Shown: in pieces, positions 58,311 through 64,000 of the stretch
Layout: each line of letters opens with the position of its first letter
Numbering within the stretch: the stretch's first letter is position 1
Source of the DNA: Dehalococcoidia bacterium
Lineage (GTDB): Bacteria; Chloroflexota; Dehalococcoidia; Lucifugimonadales; Australimonadaceae
DNA length: 64,000 bases
Direction: 5' to 3'
Assembly (NCBI GenBank): GCA_965206315.1
Contig: OZ242210.1
Span: 1,630,724-1,694,723 of the forward strand
Notes under the pieces: model-generated
What the model was told of the DNA's origin: nothing
Seen by the model: only the letters and a program-made list of their open reading frames with translations
Database searches by the model: none
Program-made: the position numbers and the translations under genes

Positions 58311-60788
58311 TCAGTCCTTGACGACGACGCTGACGAGGTAGCGGCCGGGGACGAAGACGACCTTGTCCACGCTCTTGCCGTCCGTCCAGGCGAGCACTTT
58401 CTGCGAGGTGAGCGCGGCCTCCTTCGCGTCGCCCTCGGAGATCGAGGCGGGGACGGCGATGCGGTCGCGCACCTTGCCGTTCACCTGCACGACGAGCGTC
58501 GCCTCCTCGATGGCGGCGAGCGCCTCGTCCCACTCCGGCAGGGGCTGGTTGTGGACGCTGTACCCGTGCCCGGTGCGCTCCCAGAGCTCCTCGGCGAGGT
58601 GCGGCCCCATCGGCGCGAGCAGCAGCAGCAGCGACTCGACCGCCTCGTTCCACGCGCGGCGCGAGACGGTCCCGGCCTCGTAGGCGGGCGACATCTCGTT
58701 GGTCAACTCCATCATCGCGGCGAGCGCGGTGTTGTACTTGAAGCGCTCCAGCCCCTCGATGACCGACCGGATGGTCTGGTGCGTCTTGCGAACGACGGCG
58801 CGGTCGGAGGCGCCCTCGGACTCGGGCAGCGCGTCGGTGTCCCGCAGGCAGAGGTCCCAGAAGCGGTTCACCCATCGGGCGACGCCGTTGATGCCGGAGT
58901 CGCTCCAGTCGCCCCCGCCCTCCCACGGGCCCATGAACATCAGGTAGAGGCGCACGACGTCCGCGCCCAGCTCCTGCACGTACTCGTCAGGCGCGACGAC
59001 GTTGCCGCGGCTCTTGCTCATCTTCATGTGGTCGGAGAGCACGACGCCCTGGTTGAAGAGGCGGAGGAACGGCTCGCCGAAGTCGATGAGGCCGAGGTCG
59101 CGAACGACCTTGGTGAAGAAGCGGGCGTAGAGCAGGTGCATCACCGCGTGCTCCGCGCCGCCCGTGTACTGGTCGACCGGATTCCACGAGCCGACGCGCG
59201 CGGGGTCGAACGGGCCGTCGGCGAAGTCCGGGCTGACGTAGCGCAGGAAGTACCACGACGAGTCCACGAACGTGTCCATCGTGTCGGTCTCGCGGATCGC
59301 GGGACCGCCGCAGCGGGGGCAGGTCGTGTGCAGGAAGCCGTCGTGGTAGCGGAGCGGCGACTCGCCGGTCGGCTTGAACTGGGCGTCGTCCGGCAGCACG
59401 ACGGGGAGCTGGTCGTACGGCACGGGCTGCGCGCCGCAGTCGTCGCAGTAGACGATGGGGATGGGCGTGCCCCAGTAGCGCTGGCGGCTGATGAGCCAGT
59501 CGCGCATCCGGTAGCCGACGGCGCGCCTGCCCCAGCCCTGCTGCTCGACGTGGTCGGCGATCGCCTCGTACCCCTCCGCGTTCGGCATGCCGTTGAACTG
59601 CCCGGAGTTGACCTGCGAGCCGCTCTTCTCGACCCACGCCTCCCGGAGCGGGGCGCCGTTCCAGCCCGGCGGCGCGACGACGACGCGGATCTCCAGCCCG
59701 TATTTCAGCGCGAAGTCGAAGTCGCGGGAGTCGTGGGCGGGAACGCCCATCACCGCGCCGGTGCCGTAGGTGAGCAGCACGTAGTCGCCCACCCATATGG
59801 GCACGCGGTCGCCGTTGAGTGGGTTGACGGCGTAGGAGCCGGTGAAGACGCCGGTCTTCTCGCGCTCGACGGAGAGCCGGTCGATCTCGGTGGCCTCGCG
59901 GGCGCGAGCGACGTACGCCTCGACGGCGCCGCGCTGCTCCGGCGTCGTGAGCCGCTCGACGAGCGGGTGCTCGGGCGCGAGGACGACGAACGTGACGCCG
60001 AAGATGGTGTCGATGCGCGTGGTGAACGTCGTGATCTCGCGCTCTTCGAGGCCGTACTCCGAGATGTCGAACGAGATGTCGACTCCCTCGCTGCGGCCTA
60101 TCCAGTTCGTCTGCATCGTCTTGATGCGCTCGGGCCAGTCGACGACGCCCGAGAAGTCGAGCAGTTCGTCGGCGTAGTCGGTGATGCGGAAGAACCACTG
60201 GTCCATCTCGTGTCGGATGACGACGTCGCTGGTGCGCTCGCACTTGCCGTCGACCACCTGCTCGTTGGCGAGCACGGTCTGGCAGGTGGGGCACCAGTTG
60301 ACGGGGGCGGATGCGCGGTAGGCGAGGCCCTGCTCGTACATCTTGAGGAAGAACCACTGGTTCCAGGCGTAGTAGTCCGGCTGGCAGGTGACAACCTCCC
60401 GGTCCCAGTCGTAGACCGTGCCCATTGAGCGGAGCTGGTCGCGCATGCGGTCGATGTTCCCCATCGTCCAGATGGACGGGTGGATGCCGCGGTTGATGGC
60501 GGCGTTCTCCGCCGGGAGGCCGAACGCGTCGAACCCCATGGGGTGCAGCACGTTGTAGCCGCGCATGCGCATGAAGCGGGCGTGGGCGTCGGACGGAGCC
60601 ATGGCGTACCAGTGGCCGATGTGGAGGTCGCCGGAGGGGTAGGGGTACATGGTGAGGGCGTACCACCGTGGCCGGGGGTCGTCGTCGTTCACCTGGTAGA
60701 GGTTGTCGTCGGCCCACCGCTGCTGCCACTTGCGGTCTATCTCGCGCGGGTCGTAGCGGAGAGGGGCCATGCGCTGGCGGGTCGTCAT
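58311..60788 (-). CDS. leuS: Leucine--tRNA ligase
   Basis: PYPSGDLHIGH, GTGAVMGVPAHD, DWLISRQRYWG, KMSKS, VQVNGKVR. Confidence 0.98.
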   Translation of the reverse strand: MTTRQRMAPLRYDPREIDRKWQQRWADDNLYQVNDDDPRPRWYALTMYPYPSGDLHIGHWYAMAPSDAHARFMRMRGYNVLHPMGFDAFGLPAENAAINRGIHPSIWTMGNIDRMRDQLRSMGTVYDWDREVVTCQPDYYAWNQWFFLKMYEQGLAYRASAPVNWCPTCQTVLANEQVVDGKCERTSDVVIRHEMDQWFFRITDYADELLDFSGVVDWPERIKTMQTNWIGRSEGVDISFDISEYGLEEREITTFTTRIDTIFGVTFVVLAPEHPLVERLTTPEQRGAVEAYVARAREATEIDRLSVEREKTGVFTGSYAVNPLNGDRVPIWVGDYVLLTYGTGAVMGVPAHDSRDFDFALKYGLEIRVVVAPPGWNGAPLREAWVEKSGSQVNSGQFNGMPNAEGYEAIADHVEQQGWGRRAVGYRMRDWLISRQRYWGTPIPIVYCDDCGAQPVPYDQLPVVLPDDAQFKPTGESPLRYHDGFLHTTCPRCGGPAIRETDTMDTFVDSSWYFLRYVSPDFADGPFDPARVGSWNPVDQYTGGAEHAVMHLLYARFFTKVVRDLGLIDFGEPFLRLFNQGVVLSDHMKMSKSRGNVVAPDEYVQELGADVVRLYLMFMGPWEGGGDWSDSGINGVARWVNRFWDLCLRDTDALPESEGASDRAVVRKTHQTIRSVIEGLERFKYNTALAAMMELTNEMSPAYEAGTVSRRAWNEAVESLLLLLAPMGPHLAEELWERTGHGYSVHNQPLPEWDEALAAIEEATLVVQVNGKVRDRIAVPASISEGDAKEAALTSQKVLAWTDGKSVDKVVFVPGRYLVSVVVKD

Positions 60789-60816
60789 ACGTCGCTCCAG
60801 TAACAGGGGCTGTGGA

Positions 60817-60835
60817 GTATCAGTGTAACTGATAC
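60817..60835. promoter_or_regulatory. Palindrome upstream of leuS (operator or hairpin)
   Basis: gtatcagt-gta-actgatac; overlaps a TACACT -10-like hexamer on the minus strand. Confidence 0.4.
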
Positions 60836-60860
60836 CGCGTTCAGGCGTGGGGGGCGGGTT

Positions 60861-61417
60861 CGTCTTTCCAGCGCAGGCTGGAATTCAGGCGTGCGCGTCA
60901 GCGCACACTGCGGCTCGCAGAGAGCCGCTCGAAGCAGGATGCTTCGTCTAACTCCTCGCCATGACCTACAACTATCCCCGCCGAGAGCCTCTGCGCCCCT
61001 GCGTCTACATCCTCGCCAGCCAGCGCAACGGCACGCTCTACACCGGCGTCACCTCCAACCTTCCTCAGCGTATCTGGCAGCACAAGCAGGGTCTCGGTGA
61101 CGGCTTTACGAGCAGGTACGCCGTGCATGCGCTCGTGTGGTACGAGCAGCACGAGACGATGGTGAGCGCCATCGCGCGTGAGAAGGCGATCAAGGCGTGG
61201 CAACGGAACTGGAAGATGAGACTTATCGAGGAGTCGAACCCTGAGTGGCGGGACCTCTACGATGAGATAGGCTGACGCCCGTCCCCTCCACCACCGCATG
61301 GCCTCGCGGCCATCTGGATTCCAGCCTCCGCTGGAAAGACGGGGCTGCGCCCCACGTCCGGTTCGCCTTTACCGCGCTGGCGCGGCCTTCTGGATTCCAG
61401 CCTTCGCTGGAAAGACG
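60861..61417. mobile_element. Putative REP-flanked GIY-YIG element
   Basis: 28-bp unit CGTCTTTCCAGC-GNAG-GCTGGAATYCAG at 60861-60888 (+), 61314-61341 (-) and 61390-61417 (-), bracketing the nuclease gene. Confidence 0.65.
60961..61275 (+). CDS. GIY-YIG nuclease (small YhbQ/UPF0213-like)
   Basis: CVYILAS...GTLYTGVTSNL..RIWQHK...FTSRY...LVWYE...AIAREKAIKAW.R.WK..LIE..NPEWRDL. Confidence 0.92.
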   Translation: MTYNYPRREPLRPCVYILASQRNGTLYTGVTSNLPQRIWQHKQGLGDGFTSRYAVHALVWYEQHETMVSAIAREKAIKAWQRNWKMRLIEESNPEWRDLYDEIG

Positions 61418-61525
61418 GGGCTTGTGACACGCGCCCCTTACGCGGTTGCCCCTGTCCGTCCTACCATGGTTCCGGCTGCAAAGCAGGGAACCGGTGCGGA
61501 CCGTCTGGTGCGTTCAGGAGTGCAG

Positions 61526-61770
61526 TGTCACCGAATGTCACCAAATGTCACCGCTGGGAAGAAAGGGGGGCTGTCCCACCCGGCGCGGGGGACGCGTTCG
61601 TCAGAGGTGCGATGAGCCTGCATGAGCAGGAATGAGCCACAATTCTTCGCGGCGCACGCCTGACGACCCACCCGCAGGAATGCAGCGGCGTGGCCATCCC
61701 TGTGCATCTGCGGTCAAACGCGCGCAGGCCGTGCTCATCGCCGGTCATATGCTGCCTCATCGTGAGTCAT
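61526..61770. repeat. Clusters of 10-bp-period motifs
   Basis: TGTCACC at 61526/61536/61546; ATGAGC at 61612/61622/61632; reverse-oriented TCAT at 61735/61745/61757/61767. Confidence 0.7.
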
Positions 61771-61837
61771 CCGCCGCTGCGGTACACTCGCGCCAGCGAT
61801 GAACCAGGCCCACCCTTGATGAAGGAGGAGGCTTGTC

Positions 61838-62902
61838 ATGGGGATCCTCGAACGGACCTATGCTCCCGAGGCCGGCCCTGCGGTCGACGAGGTGCTCATC
61901 TCGTCCGACTCGCACGTGATCGAGCCCGCGGGCCTCTGGAGGGAGAACCTGCCCAAGGCGCTCCGCGACCGCGCTCCCGACCTCGGAGGAGCACGAAGGA
62001 ACGACGCTCCCGGCGGGATGGACAAGTGGGAGCGGGTCAGCGAGATGGCCCGCGACGGCGTCAGCGCCGAGGTGCTGTACCCGACGCACGGCCTGAAGAC
62101 GCTCGTCCTCGGCGACCGTGACCTCGAAGAGGCGTGCGCCAGGGTCTACAACGACTGGTTGGCGGACTACTGCTCGGCGGCGCCGGACAGGCTCATCGGC
62201 CTCGCCCTGCTCTCGACGTACCGGATCGAGGCGGCGGTCGCGGAGATGGAGCGCAGCCGCAAGGCTGGCATGGCCGGAGTCATCGTGTGGCAGGTCCCGG
62301 ACCCTGCGCTTCCCTTCACGTCGCGCCACTACGATCCCCTGTGGGCGCGCGCCCAGGAGTTGGACATGCCGGTCTCGCTGCACATCCTCAGCGGCCACGG
62401 CTACAACCTGCGGCAGTCGTTCGGCCAGGGCGAGCGGGGCATCGAACAGGAGCGGACGAGCGTCAACCTGAAGCTCGTCTACGCCATGGACGCCCTGTAC
62501 GACTTCATCTTCTCCGGCGTGCTGGAGCGCTTCCCCCGCCTCAAGCTGGTGCTCGTCGAGAACGAGATCGGCTGGCTCCCGTTCACCCTGGAGCAGTGGG
62601 ACTACTACTTCCAGCGCCACGGCACGGACCGGGCGGCGCTCGACCTGACGATGCTCCCCAGCGAGTACTTCAACCGGCAGGTGTACGCAACGTTCTTCAA
62701 CGACGCGGTGGGCGGCAGGCTCCTCTCCTGGTGGGGCGCCGACAACTGCATGTGGTCCAGCGACTACCCGCACGGCAACTCGACGTGGCCGGACTCGCGG
62801 CAGATCGTCGCGCGCGACATGGGCAGCCTGCCCGCGGACGTGCGCGCCAGACTGGTGCGCGACAACGTCTCGAAGCTGTACGGGCTCGAGGTGCCTGCCT
62901 GA
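61838..62902 (+). CDS. Amidohydrolase family protein (Amidohydro_2)
   Basis: ISSDSHVIEP, AEVLYPT, SLHI, WSSDYPH; GGAGG SD. Confidence 0.92.
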   Translation: MGILERTYAPEAGPAVDEVLISSDSHVIEPAGLWRENLPKALRDRAPDLGGARRNDAPGGMDKWERVSEMARDGVSAEVLYPTHGLKTLVLGDRDLEEACARVYNDWLADYCSAAPDRLIGLALLSTYRIEAAVAEMERSRKAGMAGVIVWQVPDPALPFTSRHYDPLWARAQELDMPVSLHILSGHGYNLRQSFGQGERGIEQERTSVNLKLVYAMDALYDFIFSGVLERFPRLKLVLVENEIGWLPFTLEQWDYYFQRHGTDRAALDLTMLPSEYFNRQVYATFFNDAVGGRLLSWWGADNCMWSSDYPHGNSTWPDSRQIVARDMGSLPADVRARLVRDNVSKLYGLEVPA

Positions 62903-62916
62903 CGGGCAGGAGGCTG

Positions 62917-62974
62917 TGAGATTCCCGCCTTCGCGGGAATGACGGGGTGGTTCGACAAGCTCACTATGAGCGGA
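62917..62974. repeat. Two adjacent REP-like units between convergent genes
   Basis: Minus strand CGTCATTCCCGC-GAAG-GCGGGAATCT (62944-62919) plus CGCTCATAGTGAGCTTGTCGAACC (62972-62949). Confidence 0.75.
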
Positions 62975-62991
62975 ACGGCGGGCGGATTGGC

Positions 62992-63999
62992 TTAGATGGC
63001 GCCGGGGCCGACGCGAATGCAGGCCGTCCAGTGGCCGGGGCTCGTCTCCTTGAGCGGCGGGATGACGGCGCGGCACTCGTCGACGGCCATGGGGCACCGC
63101 GTGTGGAAGACACACCCCTGCGGCGGGTTCTGCGGGCTGGGAATATCGCCCTGCAGCACGATGCGCTCCCGCACCTCCTCCACCCCGGGGTCAGGCACCG
63201 GCACCGCGGAGAGCAGCGCCCTGGTGTACGGGTGCTGCGGGTCCTCGTAGAGGTCGTCGCAGGGCGCGAGCTCCATCAGCCGCCCGAGGTACATGACGGC
63301 GACCCGGTCCGAGATGTGCCGCACCACGGAGAGGTCGTGCGCGATGAGGAGGTACGTGAGCCCGAACTGCTCCTGCAACTCCTGCATGAGGTTGATGATC
63401 TGCGCCTGTATCGAGACGTCGAGCGCGGAGACGGGCTCGTCGGCAACGATGAACTCGGGCTCCGCCGCGATGGCCCGGGCGATGCCGATGCGCTGGCGCT
63501 GGCCGCCGGAGAACTCGTGCGGGAAGCGGTCGGCCATGTACGGGTTGAGCCCGACGACTTCCAGCAGCTCCTGGATGCGCTCCCGCATCCGGGCCTTGCC
63601 CTGCACCAGCCCGTGGACGCTCACCGGCTCGCCGATGATGCCGGCTGCCGTCATGCGGGGGCTGAGCGACGAGTACGGGTCCTGGAAGATGGCGTTGATG
63701 CGCCTGCGCATGTTGCGCAGCTCCCGTCCGCTCAGCGTGCTCATCTCCACGCCGTCGAACTTCACCTCGCCCTCGGTCTGCTGGTGCAGCTGCAGGATGC
63801 AGCGCCCCAGCGTGCTCTTGCCGCTGCCGCTCTCACCGACGAGGCCGAGCGTCTCGCCGCGCTGTATCGTGAGCGACACGTCGTCCACGGCCTTGACCTC
63901 GCCGATGCGCTTCTTGAACACGATGCCGGACGTGACCGGGAAGTACTTCTTCACCCGGCTCACTTCGACGAGGGGAGTTTCCGCTCCGGTAGTCGTCAT
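62992..63999 (-). CDS. Oligopeptide/dipeptide ABC transporter ATP-binding protein (OppF/DppF type)
   Basis: [41 protein letters not shown]; start lies at the window edge. Confidence 0.93.
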
Positions 64000-64000
64000 G

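What the first reader, a model, noticed from the sequence alone, without database searches (positions are those of the whole stretch)
60861..61417. GIY-YIG nuclease gene bracketed by inverted CGTC-tagged palindromic repeats: candidate REP-mobilising element without a transposase
Seen: a 104-aa GIY-YIG gene has one 28-bp hairpin unit upstream (CGTCTTTCCAGC-GCAG-GCTGGAATTCAG) and two inverted copies downstream, 76 nt apart, with loops GGAG and GAAG. The CGTC tags face outward and the cassette sits between leuS and an unrelated region. Established: REP families are normally spread by HUH tyrosine transposases (RAYT/TnpA-REP) whose genes are flanked by their REPs in this same layout. Inference: here a GIY-YIG nuclease, a fold that includes structure-specific nucleases such as SLX1, occupies the RAYT position and may nick the hairpins to spread them or itself.
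Basis: partly seen in the sequence, partly recalled or inferred. Interest (0 to 1): 0.8.

Follow-up and report, generated by a model that had tools for sequence, protein, structure and literature searches.

The report
Known Ssn nuclease with its hairpins

Summary
A 104-aa GIY-YIG ORF (60961-61275) has one 28-nt CGTC-tagged hairpin upstream and two inverted copies downstream.

It is a member of a published system. Chenal et al. 2025 (PMC11893778) describe single-domain GIY-YIG "Ssn" nucleases. These bind the hairpin CGTCATTCCCGCGMAVGCGGGAATCYRG (NTS/SRM) only as ssDNA and cut a few nt upstream. Their genes sit in an NTS-ssnA-NTS layout, which the authors compare with IS200/IS605 and REP/RAYT.

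- The window protein is 64.5% identical (E 5e-32) to a 94-aa, NTS-flanked ORF of Neisseria gonorrhoeae.
- The genome holds about 230 such hairpins, 46 of them exact NTS consensus, and no Y1 transposase.
- All 3 small GIY-YIG genes in the genome are bracketed the same way.

My comparisons add indirect evidence of mobility:
- The cassette is absent beside leuS in all 10 relatives examined.
- A paralogous cassette is missing from its site in 3 relatives.
- The unit shared by the two paralogues runs exactly from CGTC to GACG.
- Across phyla, 54 of 80 homologues have flanking inverted repeats, against 3 of 147 control positions.

Transposition by the nuclease itself remains unshown. Verdict: new member of a known kind, low to moderate interest.

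The parts
60861..60888 (+). Upstream NTS/SRM-like hairpin, CGTC tag outward. It is a variant with T at position 5 and T in place of the C that follows the palindrome.
   Evidence: It fails the published SRM search string only at that C-to-T position.
60889..60960 (+). 5' leader between the hairpin and the start codon. It holds a second hairpin (60891-60906, GTGCGC-GTCA-GCGCAC) and a third (60910-60928, read by eye).
   Evidence: The second hairpin comes from the fold. Comparable hairpins are seen in the leaders of paralogue 2 and of relatives. The third hairpin was not folded.
60961..61275 (+). ssn gene: a single-domain GIY-YIG nuclease of 104 aa plus stop.
   Evidence: Pfam PF01541, E 4e-16. 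Residues Y27, R37, H41, E74 and N93 are invariant in 23 homologues. It is 64.5% identical to the NTS-flanked 94-aa ORF of N. gonorrhoeae.
61298..61313 (-). Inner second hairpin of downstream unit 1.
   Evidence: Fold of window:61295-61347:-.
61314..61341 (-). Downstream NTS/SRM-like hairpin 1 (loop GGAG), CGTC tag outward.
   Evidence: The alignment with paralogue 2 ends exactly at 61341.
61372..61385 (-). Inner second hairpin of downstream unit 2.
   Evidence: Fold of window:61371-61423:-.
61390..61417 (-). Downstream NTS/SRM-like hairpin 2 (loop GAAG). It is part of a 42-nt direct repeat with unit 1.
   Evidence: It is the only one of the three units that matches the published SRM search string.
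60861..61341 (+). The hairpin-ssn-hairpin unit shared with the paralogous cassette at G000:C1:2658613-2659090 (79% identity). It is bounded by CGTC at one end and GACG at the other.
   Evidence: query 962-1442. Hairpin coordinates.
60854..61575 (.). Stretch with no counterpart at the orthologous leuS site of relative G012, which has 210 nt of another repeat element here.
   Evidence: Homology with 9 of 10 relatives stops at 60851-60858.
62921..62944 (-). Solo hairpin of the canonical NTS stem type (TTCCCGC/GCGGGAA), lying between convergent genes.

Best explanation
The locus is an SRM-ssn-SRM cassette. The 104-aa ORF is an Ssn-family nuclease, a single-domain GIY-YIG protein homologous to Neisseria SsnA. 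The CGTC-tagged hairpins are its cognate NTS/SRM repeats.

**Inferred from characterised homologues.** The protein binds the hairpin only when the strand reading CGTC...CCAG is single-stranded, and it hydrolyses that strand a few nt 5' of the CGTC tag. The tags face outward. The predicted cuts therefore fall just outside the cassette: on the top strand a few nt before 60861, and on the bottom strand just beyond 61341 and 61417.

**Shown here.**
- The same hairpin family has about 230 copies in this 2.87-Mb Dehalococcoidia genome. It falls into stem subfamilies that differ by compensatory changes.
- All three small GIY-YIG genes in the genome are bracketed in the same way.
- The cassette is a discrete unit whose presence and position vary among species of the genus.

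**Inferred, about even odds.** The unit and the solo hairpins spread through events started by the nuclease's nick, that is repair or copying primed at the nick. This would be neither HUH nor DDE chemistry. The alternative or additional role is control of ssDNA, as in Neisseria.
For: **Family identity**
- Pfam GIY-YIG, E 4e-16.
- tblastn of the window protein finds a single place in an N. gonorrhoeae chromosome record, at 64.5% identity and E 5e-32. That place is a 94-aa ORF, with 60 of 93 residues identical and 7 exact NTS repeats within +/-600 nt. The published SsnA is also 94 aa.

**Hairpin identity**
- The genome-wide consensus is C-CGTCATTCCnGCGAAGGCnGGAATCCaG, which matches the published NTS.
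- There are 46 exact NTS-consensus copies against 0 in each of 5 simulated genomes.
- A hairpin regex finds 230 copies.
- Stem pairs co-vary. The inner pair is Watson-Crick in 222 of 227 copies (C-G 121, T-A 73, A-T 28). The outer pair is Watson-Crick in 191 of 227.

**Association of gene and hairpins**
- All 3 small GIY-YIG genes of the genome are bracketed by inverted hairpins.
- Of 80 homologue loci from many phyla, 54 have a flanking inverted repeat scoring at least 36, against 3 of 147 control positions.
- Of 104 intact homologue loci, 88 have an outward-tagged hairpin on at least one side and 46 on both.
- Protein distance correlates with hairpin-arm distance: Spearman 0.27, reached by 0 of 1000 permutations. 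Related sequences inflate this figure.

**Unit and mobility**
- The paralogue alignment spans exactly 60861-61341.
- The gene is found in 16 of 21 other genomes of the genus, with 0-7 copies, some carrying stop codons or reduced to fragments.
- It is absent beside leuS in all 10 relatives examined.
- The paralogue-2 cassette is absent at its orthologous site in G012, G014 and G015.
- Of 18 mapped G012 hairpins, 8 are absent at the orthologous G000 site.

**Published biochemistry.** Four Ssn homologues cut ssDNA a few nt upstream of their hairpin (PMC11893778).
Against: - No activity was measured for this protein.
- The cassette's own hairpin variant (CGTCT...) occurs only at these three places in the genome.
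- The upstream copy carries T at the cytosine that the paper reports as most crucial for binding. This copy may therefore be inert.
- The published SRM search string matches only 1 of the 3 units.
- Hairpins persist without the gene. G013 has 165 hairpins and G018 has 76, and in each the only GIY-YIG hit is a UvrC-sized frame.
- The 54-copy CGTCG/GGAAC subfamily has no cognate gene in this genome.
- No clean target-site duplication or exact empty site was recovered, because the sites are hypervariable repeat hot spots.
- In one deltaproteobacterial genome the two cassette copies are bounded by an unrelated 17-bp terminal inverted repeat with ~11-nt direct repeats. That points to carriage by another transposon there.
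- GIY-YIG enzymes are hydrolytic (general knowledge). They cannot by themselves join DNA ends.
Confidence: 0.85

Rival explanations
1. The nuclease is domesticated. It serves the host by cutting ssDNA that carries the hairpins, such as incoming or recombining DNA, as SsnA limits transformation in N. meningitidis. Under this reading the cassette is no longer a mobile element, and the hairpins are maintained as marks rather than spread by the enzyme.
For: - Published in-vivo role in Neisseria.
- The authors' domestication hypothesis.
- The ORF is intact with conserved catalytic residues.
- The cassette's private hairpin variant has not amplified.
- The upstream copy has a C-to-T change at the key binding position.
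- Hairpins are kept in genomes with no small GIY-YIG gene.
- Hairpins are mostly intergenic: 197 of 232 lie outside my crude gene calls, which cover 78% of the genome.
Against: - The gene's distribution is patchy, with variable copy number, stop codons and fragments.
- Its genomic position differs in every relative examined.
- Copies within one genus fall in several clades, between sequences from Pseudomonadota, in an unsupported FastTree.
- Hairpin sites are polymorphic between species.
- This reading is not exclusive of the main explanation.
Confidence: 0.3
2. The gene is a passenger. The hairpins are spread by some other agent, or accumulate in intergenic hot spots. The GIY-YIG gene merely sits in, or is carried through, such hot spots without acting on the hairpins.
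For: - The site next to leuS holds different repeat elements in different relatives.
- An IS30-like element specifically targets these hairpins: 14 of 14 copies do so.
- The L107/L116 copies are bounded by an unrelated 17-bp terminal inverted repeat.
Against: - The orientation rule (tags outward) holds, and flanking repeats are enriched 54 of 80 against 3 of 147 controls.
- The two arms of a cassette usually share the same stem type: 26 of 46 loci have identical arms.
- Protein and hairpin co-vary.
- Direct biochemistry on homologues shows specific binding and cutting.
Confidence: 0.07
3. The hairpins are ordinary transcription signals (terminators or attenuators) of the neighbouring genes, and their layout around the ORF is a coincidence.
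For: Solo copies often lie close after a stop codon in the gene's orientation: 124 cases with a median distance of 28 nt, by my crude gene calls.
Against: - No intrinsic-terminator-like or sigma-70-like site was found in 60700-61900.
- The non-palindromic tags are conserved from Dehalococcoidia to Neisseria.
- The pattern gives 0 matches in 100 shuffles of the window.
Confidence: 0.02

Closest known systems
Ssn nuclease family with NTS/SRM hairpin repeats (Chenal et al. 2025, Nat Commun 16:2388; PMC11893778)
   Same: - A single-domain GIY-YIG protein of about 100 aa.
- The same 28-nt hairpin with CGTCA and TCCAG tags.
- A hairpin-gene-hairpin layout.
- Hundreds of solo copies in the genome.
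- 64.5% identity to the NTS-flanked gonococcal ORF.
   Different: - The host is a Dehalococcoidia bacterium. The paper's main text mentions neither Chloroflexota nor Dehalococcoidia, and its supplements could not be read.
- There are three paralogues, flanked by three different stem variants.
- This cassette's own variant departs from the consensus at two positions that matter in the paper's mutagenesis.
- Activity is untested.
RAYT (TnpA-REP) genes flanked by REP/REPIN sequences
   Same: A single small nuclease gene is bracketed by inverted copies of a hairpin repeat that is scattered through the intergenic DNA. A tetranucleotide tag gives the repeat its orientation.
   Different: The enzyme is a hydrolytic GIY-YIG nuclease, not an HUH/Y1 transposase. 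No PF01797 match exists in the genome. No covalent intermediate is expected, so there is no self-contained cut-and-join chemistry.
IS200/IS605 'peel and paste' elements
   Same: The nuclease recognises hairpins in single-stranded DNA and cuts at a short distance from them.
   Different: The end hairpins of IS200/IS605 lie on one strand in direct orientation (recalled). Here they are inverted, so the predicted cuts fall on opposite strands. The enzyme families are unrelated.
GIY-YIG homing endonucleases (I-TevI type) and SLX1/UvrC
   Same: The same catalytic fold and motifs.
   Different: There is no separate DNA-binding domain, intron or partner subunit. The family's published substrate is ssDNA only.

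Membership tests
Ssn (SsnA-like, cd10448) nucleases | Single-domain GIY-YIG protein of about 94-105 aa | tested here: met
   The ORF is 104 aa. Pfam GIY-YIG covers residues 13-86 and no other family is hit.
Ssn (SsnA-like, cd10448) nucleases | Homology to Neisseria SsnA at E < 1e-10 (the paper's tblastn criterion) | tested here: met
   E 5e-32 and 64.5% identity to a 94-aa, NTS-flanked ORF in N. gonorrhoeae. That stretch of the record is unannotated, so its being the ssnA orthologue is inferred from its length, its being the only match in the record, and its NTS flanks.
Ssn (SsnA-like, cd10448) nucleases | Assignment to CDD model cd10448 | not testable with these tools
   No CDD library was available. 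NCBIfam gives no hit.
Ssn (SsnA-like, cd10448) nucleases | Catalytic residues mutated in the paper (Y6, Y17, E64 of the meningococcal enzyme) are present | tested here: met
   Y16 and Y27 align with identical residues of the gonococcal ORF at an offset of 10. Y27 and E74 are invariant in 23 homologues and Y16 in 13 closer ones. The equivalence of E74 to E64 rests on the ungapped offset.
Ssn (SsnA-like, cd10448) nucleases | Gene flanked on both sides by NTS/SRM hairpins | tested here: met
   The published SRM string matches 1 of the 3 units. The other two each fail at one position, a loop letter in one and the C-to-T after the palindrome in the other.
Ssn (SsnA-like, cd10448) nucleases | Cuts only ssDNA, strand-specifically, a few nt upstream of the hairpin | not testable with these tools
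   This needs an enzyme assay.
RAYT / REP system | HUH Y1 transposase (PF01797) encoded between the repeats | tested here: not met
   The gene is GIY-YIG. PF01797 has 0 matches in the whole genome, while the control genomes give hits in 6 of 14.
RAYT / REP system | Gene bracketed by inverted copies of a genome-wide hairpin repeat | tested here: met
IS200/IS605 | Y1 transposase, and subterminal hairpins on the same strand | tested here: not met
   No Y1 transposase was found. The hairpins are inverted.
GIY-YIG homing endonucleases | GIY-YIG domain joined to a separate DNA-binding domain | tested here: not met
   The protein is 104 aa with a single domain.

The most novel reading that the evidence does not exclude
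The hairpin-ssn-hairpin unit is an autonomous mobile element of a mechanistic class not yet demonstrated. A hydrolytic GIY-YIG ssDNA nickase, rather than an HUH or DDE transposase, starts its spread. Nicks just outside the outward-facing tags would prime copying or repair.

On this reading the solo hairpins are its non-autonomous derivatives, and each paralogue services its own stem subfamily. In this genome the three genes are flanked by three different variants. The fourth, abundant subfamily has lost its gene here, but a relative has a gene flanked by that type.

The truncated 5' half-copies stacked 18-21 nt upstream of 45 of 232 hairpins would then be scars of repeated events at the cut site.
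Probability: 0.35. Interest if true: 0.75.

Novelty: new member of a known kind. Interest (0 to 1): 0.3.

Why it matters
The Ssn/NTS system was described only in 2025, and mainly in Neisseria and other Pseudomonadota. This locus shows the same protein (64.5% identical) and the same 28-nt hairpin in a Dehalococcoidia genome that has no RAYT.

The genus offers closely related genomes that differ 20-fold in hairpin number (55 to 1245). They also differ in gene copy number (0 to 7).

That makes the genus a good natural data set for a question the paper leaves open: how these hairpins and the cassette spread, and whether each nuclease paralogue has its own hairpin subtype. The paralogues and their variant hairpins are also ready-made candidates for new ssDNA cutting specificities, the paper's proposed application.

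Tried and rejected
- **Rfam:** 60000-64000 at E <= 1 gave only a chance RT-15 hit (17 bits against a gathering score of 82).
- **NCBIfam:** no family for the protein.
- **PDB by sequence:** only 1zg2_A, UPF0213 BH0048, at E 1e-3. The higher-ranked WD40 rows are repeat artefacts with no significant single stretch.
- **Literature:** 'GIY-YIG' with 'repetitive extragenic palindromic' gave 0 papers. With 'RAYT' it gave 11, none relevant by title or abstract. COG2827/YhbQ/UPF0213 gave 10 and 'palindromic repeats'+'intergenic' gave 19; none was relevant by listing. The decisive paper was found only by searching for the hairpin sequence itself.
- **The search for related loci** with the 23-sequence alignment A1 failed for lack of a conserved stretch. 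The 13-sequence A2 worked.
- **Three-genome MAFFT** of a 20-kb region was too fragmented by differences in gene content to count indels. I used flank mapping instead. Only 8 of 232 G000 hairpins had both flanks in the 400-kb G012 sample, and those 8 were not analysed further.
- **Replichore bias:** none (70+/75- and 46+/41-).
- **Promoter and terminator scan:** nothing found.
- **Tree:** my translation of paralogue 3 was out of frame, so that row, the rooting and its identity figures are meaningless. No support values were examined, so I use the tree only as a weak hint.
- **No exact empty site or target duplication** was found for either cassette of this genome.
- **Not attempted:** structure prediction, complex prediction and read mapping.

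Full report
**1. Observation.**

- A 28-nt unit, CGTCTTTCCAGCGCAGGCTGGAATTCAG, lies at 60861-60888 on the + strand.
- Inverted copies lie at 61314-61341 and 61390-61417, with start-to-start spacing of 76 nt and loops GGAG and GAAG.
- The 24-nt core pattern, with up to 3 mismatches, gives 4 matches in the window and none in 100 shuffles.
- The fourth match is a solo copy with a TTCCCGC/GCGGGAA stem at 62921-62944.
- As ssDNA, each 28-mer folds into a 7-bp stem with a 4-nt loop (-7 kcal/mol, z -3.4 to -4.3). Each arm has a second hairpin on its inner side. This explains the 44-52-nt inverted arms reported.
- The ORF 60961-61275 (104 aa) is a GIY-YIG domain: PF01541, E 4e-16.
- The gene to the left is leuS: TIGR00396, 988.5 bits.

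**2. The repeat is a genome-wide family.**

The window lies in a single-contig genome of 2.87 Mb and 66.5% G+C.
- A hairpin regex finds 230 copies.
- Their consensus is C-CGTCATTCCnGCGAAGGCnGGAATCCaG, with non-palindromic tags on both sides.
- The stem varies by compensatory changes. The inner pair is C-G in 121 copies, T-A in 73 and A-T in 28, and is Watson-Crick in 222 of 227. An outer pair is A-T in 136 and G-C in 55, and is Watson-Crick in 191 of 227.
- There are three main subfamilies of 99, 54 and 24 copies. The cassette's own CGTCT variant occurs only at its three sites.
- By a crude gene caller of my own that covers 78% of the genome, 197 of 232 copies are intergenic.
- There is no replichore bias.
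- No Y1/RAYT transposase (PF01797) was found.

**3. All small GIY-YIG genes in the genome share the layout.**

PF01541 finds four places: the window gene, two paralogues and a 713-aa frame taken to be UvrC.
- Paralogue 2 (2658711-2659023) has CGTCATTCCAGCGAAAGCTGGAAT upstream and the same unit inverted downstream.
- Paralogue 3 has a slightly damaged inverted unit right after its stop. Its forward unit lies upstream, separated from the gene by an inserted IS.
- The DNA alignment between the window cassette and paralogue 2 is 79% identical and runs exactly from the first C of CGTC (60861) to the last G of GACG (61341).

**4. It is already described.**

A literature search for the hairpin sequence itself led to Chenal et al. 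2025, Nat Commun 16:2388 (PMC11893778). I read the outline, Introduction, Results parts 1-3, Discussion and one Methods section, and ran a term search. The supplements are closed. The paper reports the following.
- It defines the NTS as CGTCATTCCCGCGMAVGCGGGAATCYRG.
- SsnA, a 94-aa single-domain GIY-YIG protein of family cd10448, binds this hairpin only as ssDNA and cuts a few nt upstream, in one orientation only.
- Three further homologues behave alike.
- 71% of homologue regions carry such motifs, and 42% carry them on both sides.
- In N. meningitidis, SsnA lowers transformation by NTS-bearing DNA.
- The Discussion calls the NTS-ssnA-NTS layout identical to insertion sequences. It draws the parallel with IS200/IS605, REP/BIME and domesticated transposases.

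A 2026 preprint already uses SsnA-NTS loci as a benchmark class of known repeats (passages seen).

**5. Membership.**
- The window protein finds one place in each of two N. gonorrhoeae chromosome-sized records of the plasmid collection. The best has 64.5% identity and E 5e-32.
- That place is a 94-aa ORF, with 60 of 93 residues identical and 7 exact NTS copies within +/-600 nt.
- The tyrosines that the paper mutated (Y6, Y17) align with identical residues Y16 and Y27.
- Y27, R37, H41, E74 and N93 are invariant in 23 homologues.
- The genome holds 46 exact NTS-consensus copies, against 0 in five simulated genomes.
- The published degenerate SRM string gives 154 hits against 39-48 in the simulations, but it matches only one of the cassette's three units. 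The upstream unit fails only at a C-to-T change directly after the palindrome. A downstream unit fails only at a loop letter.
- The paper names that cytosine as the most crucial base for binding.
- CDD assignment could not be tested.

**6. What my comparisons add.**

*(a) Distribution of the gene and the hairpins.*
- The gene occurs in 16 of 21 other genomes of the genus, at 0-7 copies, some with stop codons or as fragments.
- Hairpin counts in the genus range from 55 to 1245. The three highest counts (1245, 1007, 765) are in genomes that have the gene.
- G013 has 165 hairpins and G018 has 76, and each has only a UvrC-sized GIY-YIG hit.

*(b) Position of the cassettes.*
- In 10 relatives, the homology on the leuS side stops at 60851-60858 in nine. 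In the tenth it runs on to 60881, because that genome has a solo hairpin of another subtype at the same spot.
- None of the 10 has the gene there.
- G012 has 210 nt of a different repeat element where this genome has about 720 nt.
- The paralogue-2 cassette is missing at its orthologous site in G012, G014 and G015, where the intergenic regions are short. G013 has a solo hairpin aligned with the cassette's upstream hairpin.

*(c) Solo hairpins.* Of 28 hairpins in a 400-kb sample of G012, 18 could be mapped by both flanks. By my reading of the alignments, 8 are absent at the G000 site, 7 are present and 3 are uninformative.

*(d) Generality across phyla.*
- In 80 homologue loci from many phyla, 54 have a flanking inverted repeat of score at least 36, against 3 of 147 control positions.
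- Of the 110 loci held, 104 passed my intactness filter. Of these, 88 have an outward-tagged hairpin on at least one side and 46 on both. In 26 of those 46 the two 7-nt arms are identical.
- Stems differ widely, while the CGTCA and TCCAG tags stay.
- Protein distance and arm distance correlate: Spearman 0.27, reached by 0 of 1000 permutations. For the 66 loci of the wider set it is 0.23, also reached by 0 of 1000. Relatedness inflates such tests.

**7. Mechanism.**

*Inferred from homologues.* The enzyme recognises the folded hairpin plus its tags on one strand of ssDNA and hydrolyses a few nt 5' of CGTC. With the tags outward, the cuts fall just outside the cassette on opposite strands.

*Consistent but not decisive.* The break in homology with relatives lies 3-10 nt before the CGTC of the upstream hairpin.

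*Not shown.* Nothing here or in the paper shows that these nicks cause spread. A hydrolytic nuclease cannot rejoin DNA (general knowledge), so any spread must use host repair or replication.

*Against a simple transposon model.*
- I found no target duplication.
- The sites are repeat hot spots.
- Hairpins persist without the gene.
- In one deltaproteobacterial genome the two copies are bounded by an unrelated 17-bp terminal inverted repeat with ~11-nt direct repeats.

**8. Verdict.**

The system was published in 2025, including the comparison with REP/RAYT. This locus is a new member, in Dehalococcoidia (record titles), of a known kind. The open part is mobility, for which this genus offers good comparative material.

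Noticed in passing
G000:C1:2650218-2651250 (= L123:12218-13250) and 13 further places listed; none lies in the window: A 1033-bp IS has 14 copies in two subfamilies (4 + 10 copies, 73% identical). All 14 are inserted at the same position in the 3' arm of an NTS-like hairpin (...GGAA|G-IS-...TTAG|GGAA-TCCAG). Its 319-aa transposase has HTH_38 above the Pfam cut-off and rve below it (25.9 bits against 32.6), which looks IS30-like; the family name is recalled. REP-targeting ISs are a known phenomenon (Tobes & Pareja 2006, PMC1525189; passages seen).
   Followed up: partly
Genome-wide in G000; examples printed: Of 232 hairpins, 45 have a truncated 5' half-copy (CGTCATTCCCGC, without the 3' arm) 18-21 nt upstream in the same orientation. 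Only 8 have one downstream and 0 have one in reverse orientation. Similar stacks occur in other phyla (L048, L065). The cause is unknown. They could be scars of repeated events at the cut site.
   Followed up: partly
Window 60891-60906, 61298-61313, 61372-61385, and genome-wide: In 57% of the 232 hairpins, the 28 nt on the 3' (TCCAG) side fold to -8 kcal/mol or lower, often as GTGNNC-N4-5-GNNCAC. The figure is 19% for the 5' side and 30% for shuffled sequence. The repeated unit is therefore often a double hairpin of about 50 nt.
   Followed up: partly
Window 61418-61640: Directly beyond the second downstream hairpin lies another repeat: 13 BLAST hits in the genome including itself, four of the others 129-228 nt long, and many copies in relatives. 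It contains three TGTCACC words. Rfam shows nothing there.
   Followed up: partly
L018-L022 and L024 (relatives), and the leuS-adjacent site in L033, L036-L039: More distant GIY-YIG homologues (41-54% identity) are flanked by a different tagged repeat starting TGTCATTCTGAG.... Long palindromic elements with TGTCATGTTGAGCGGAGC... ends occupy the leuS-adjacent site in several relatives. This is probably a second nuclease-repeat pair of the same kind.
   Followed up: partly
L107:1393-1907 and L116:1393-1880 (one deltaproteobacterial MAG): Two cassette copies are 91% identical. They are bounded by a perfect 17-bp terminal inverted repeat (CATAAGCGCTAACTTAA) and flanked by ~11-nt direct repeats, as if the cassette rides inside another transposon.
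   Followed up: partly
Window 61298-61615 (+) and 62764-62964 (-): Long spurious ORFs translate the hairpins into peptides such as WIPAFAGKT and VIPAKAGIS. Such repeat-derived 'hypothetical proteins' are annotation artefacts.
   Followed up: no
G012:C12:66226-66248 against G000 1351338-1351678 (item #12): A hairpin present in G012 and absent in G000 appears to lie inside a stretch that aligns like coding sequence on both sides. Frame and gene identity were not checked.
   Followed up: no
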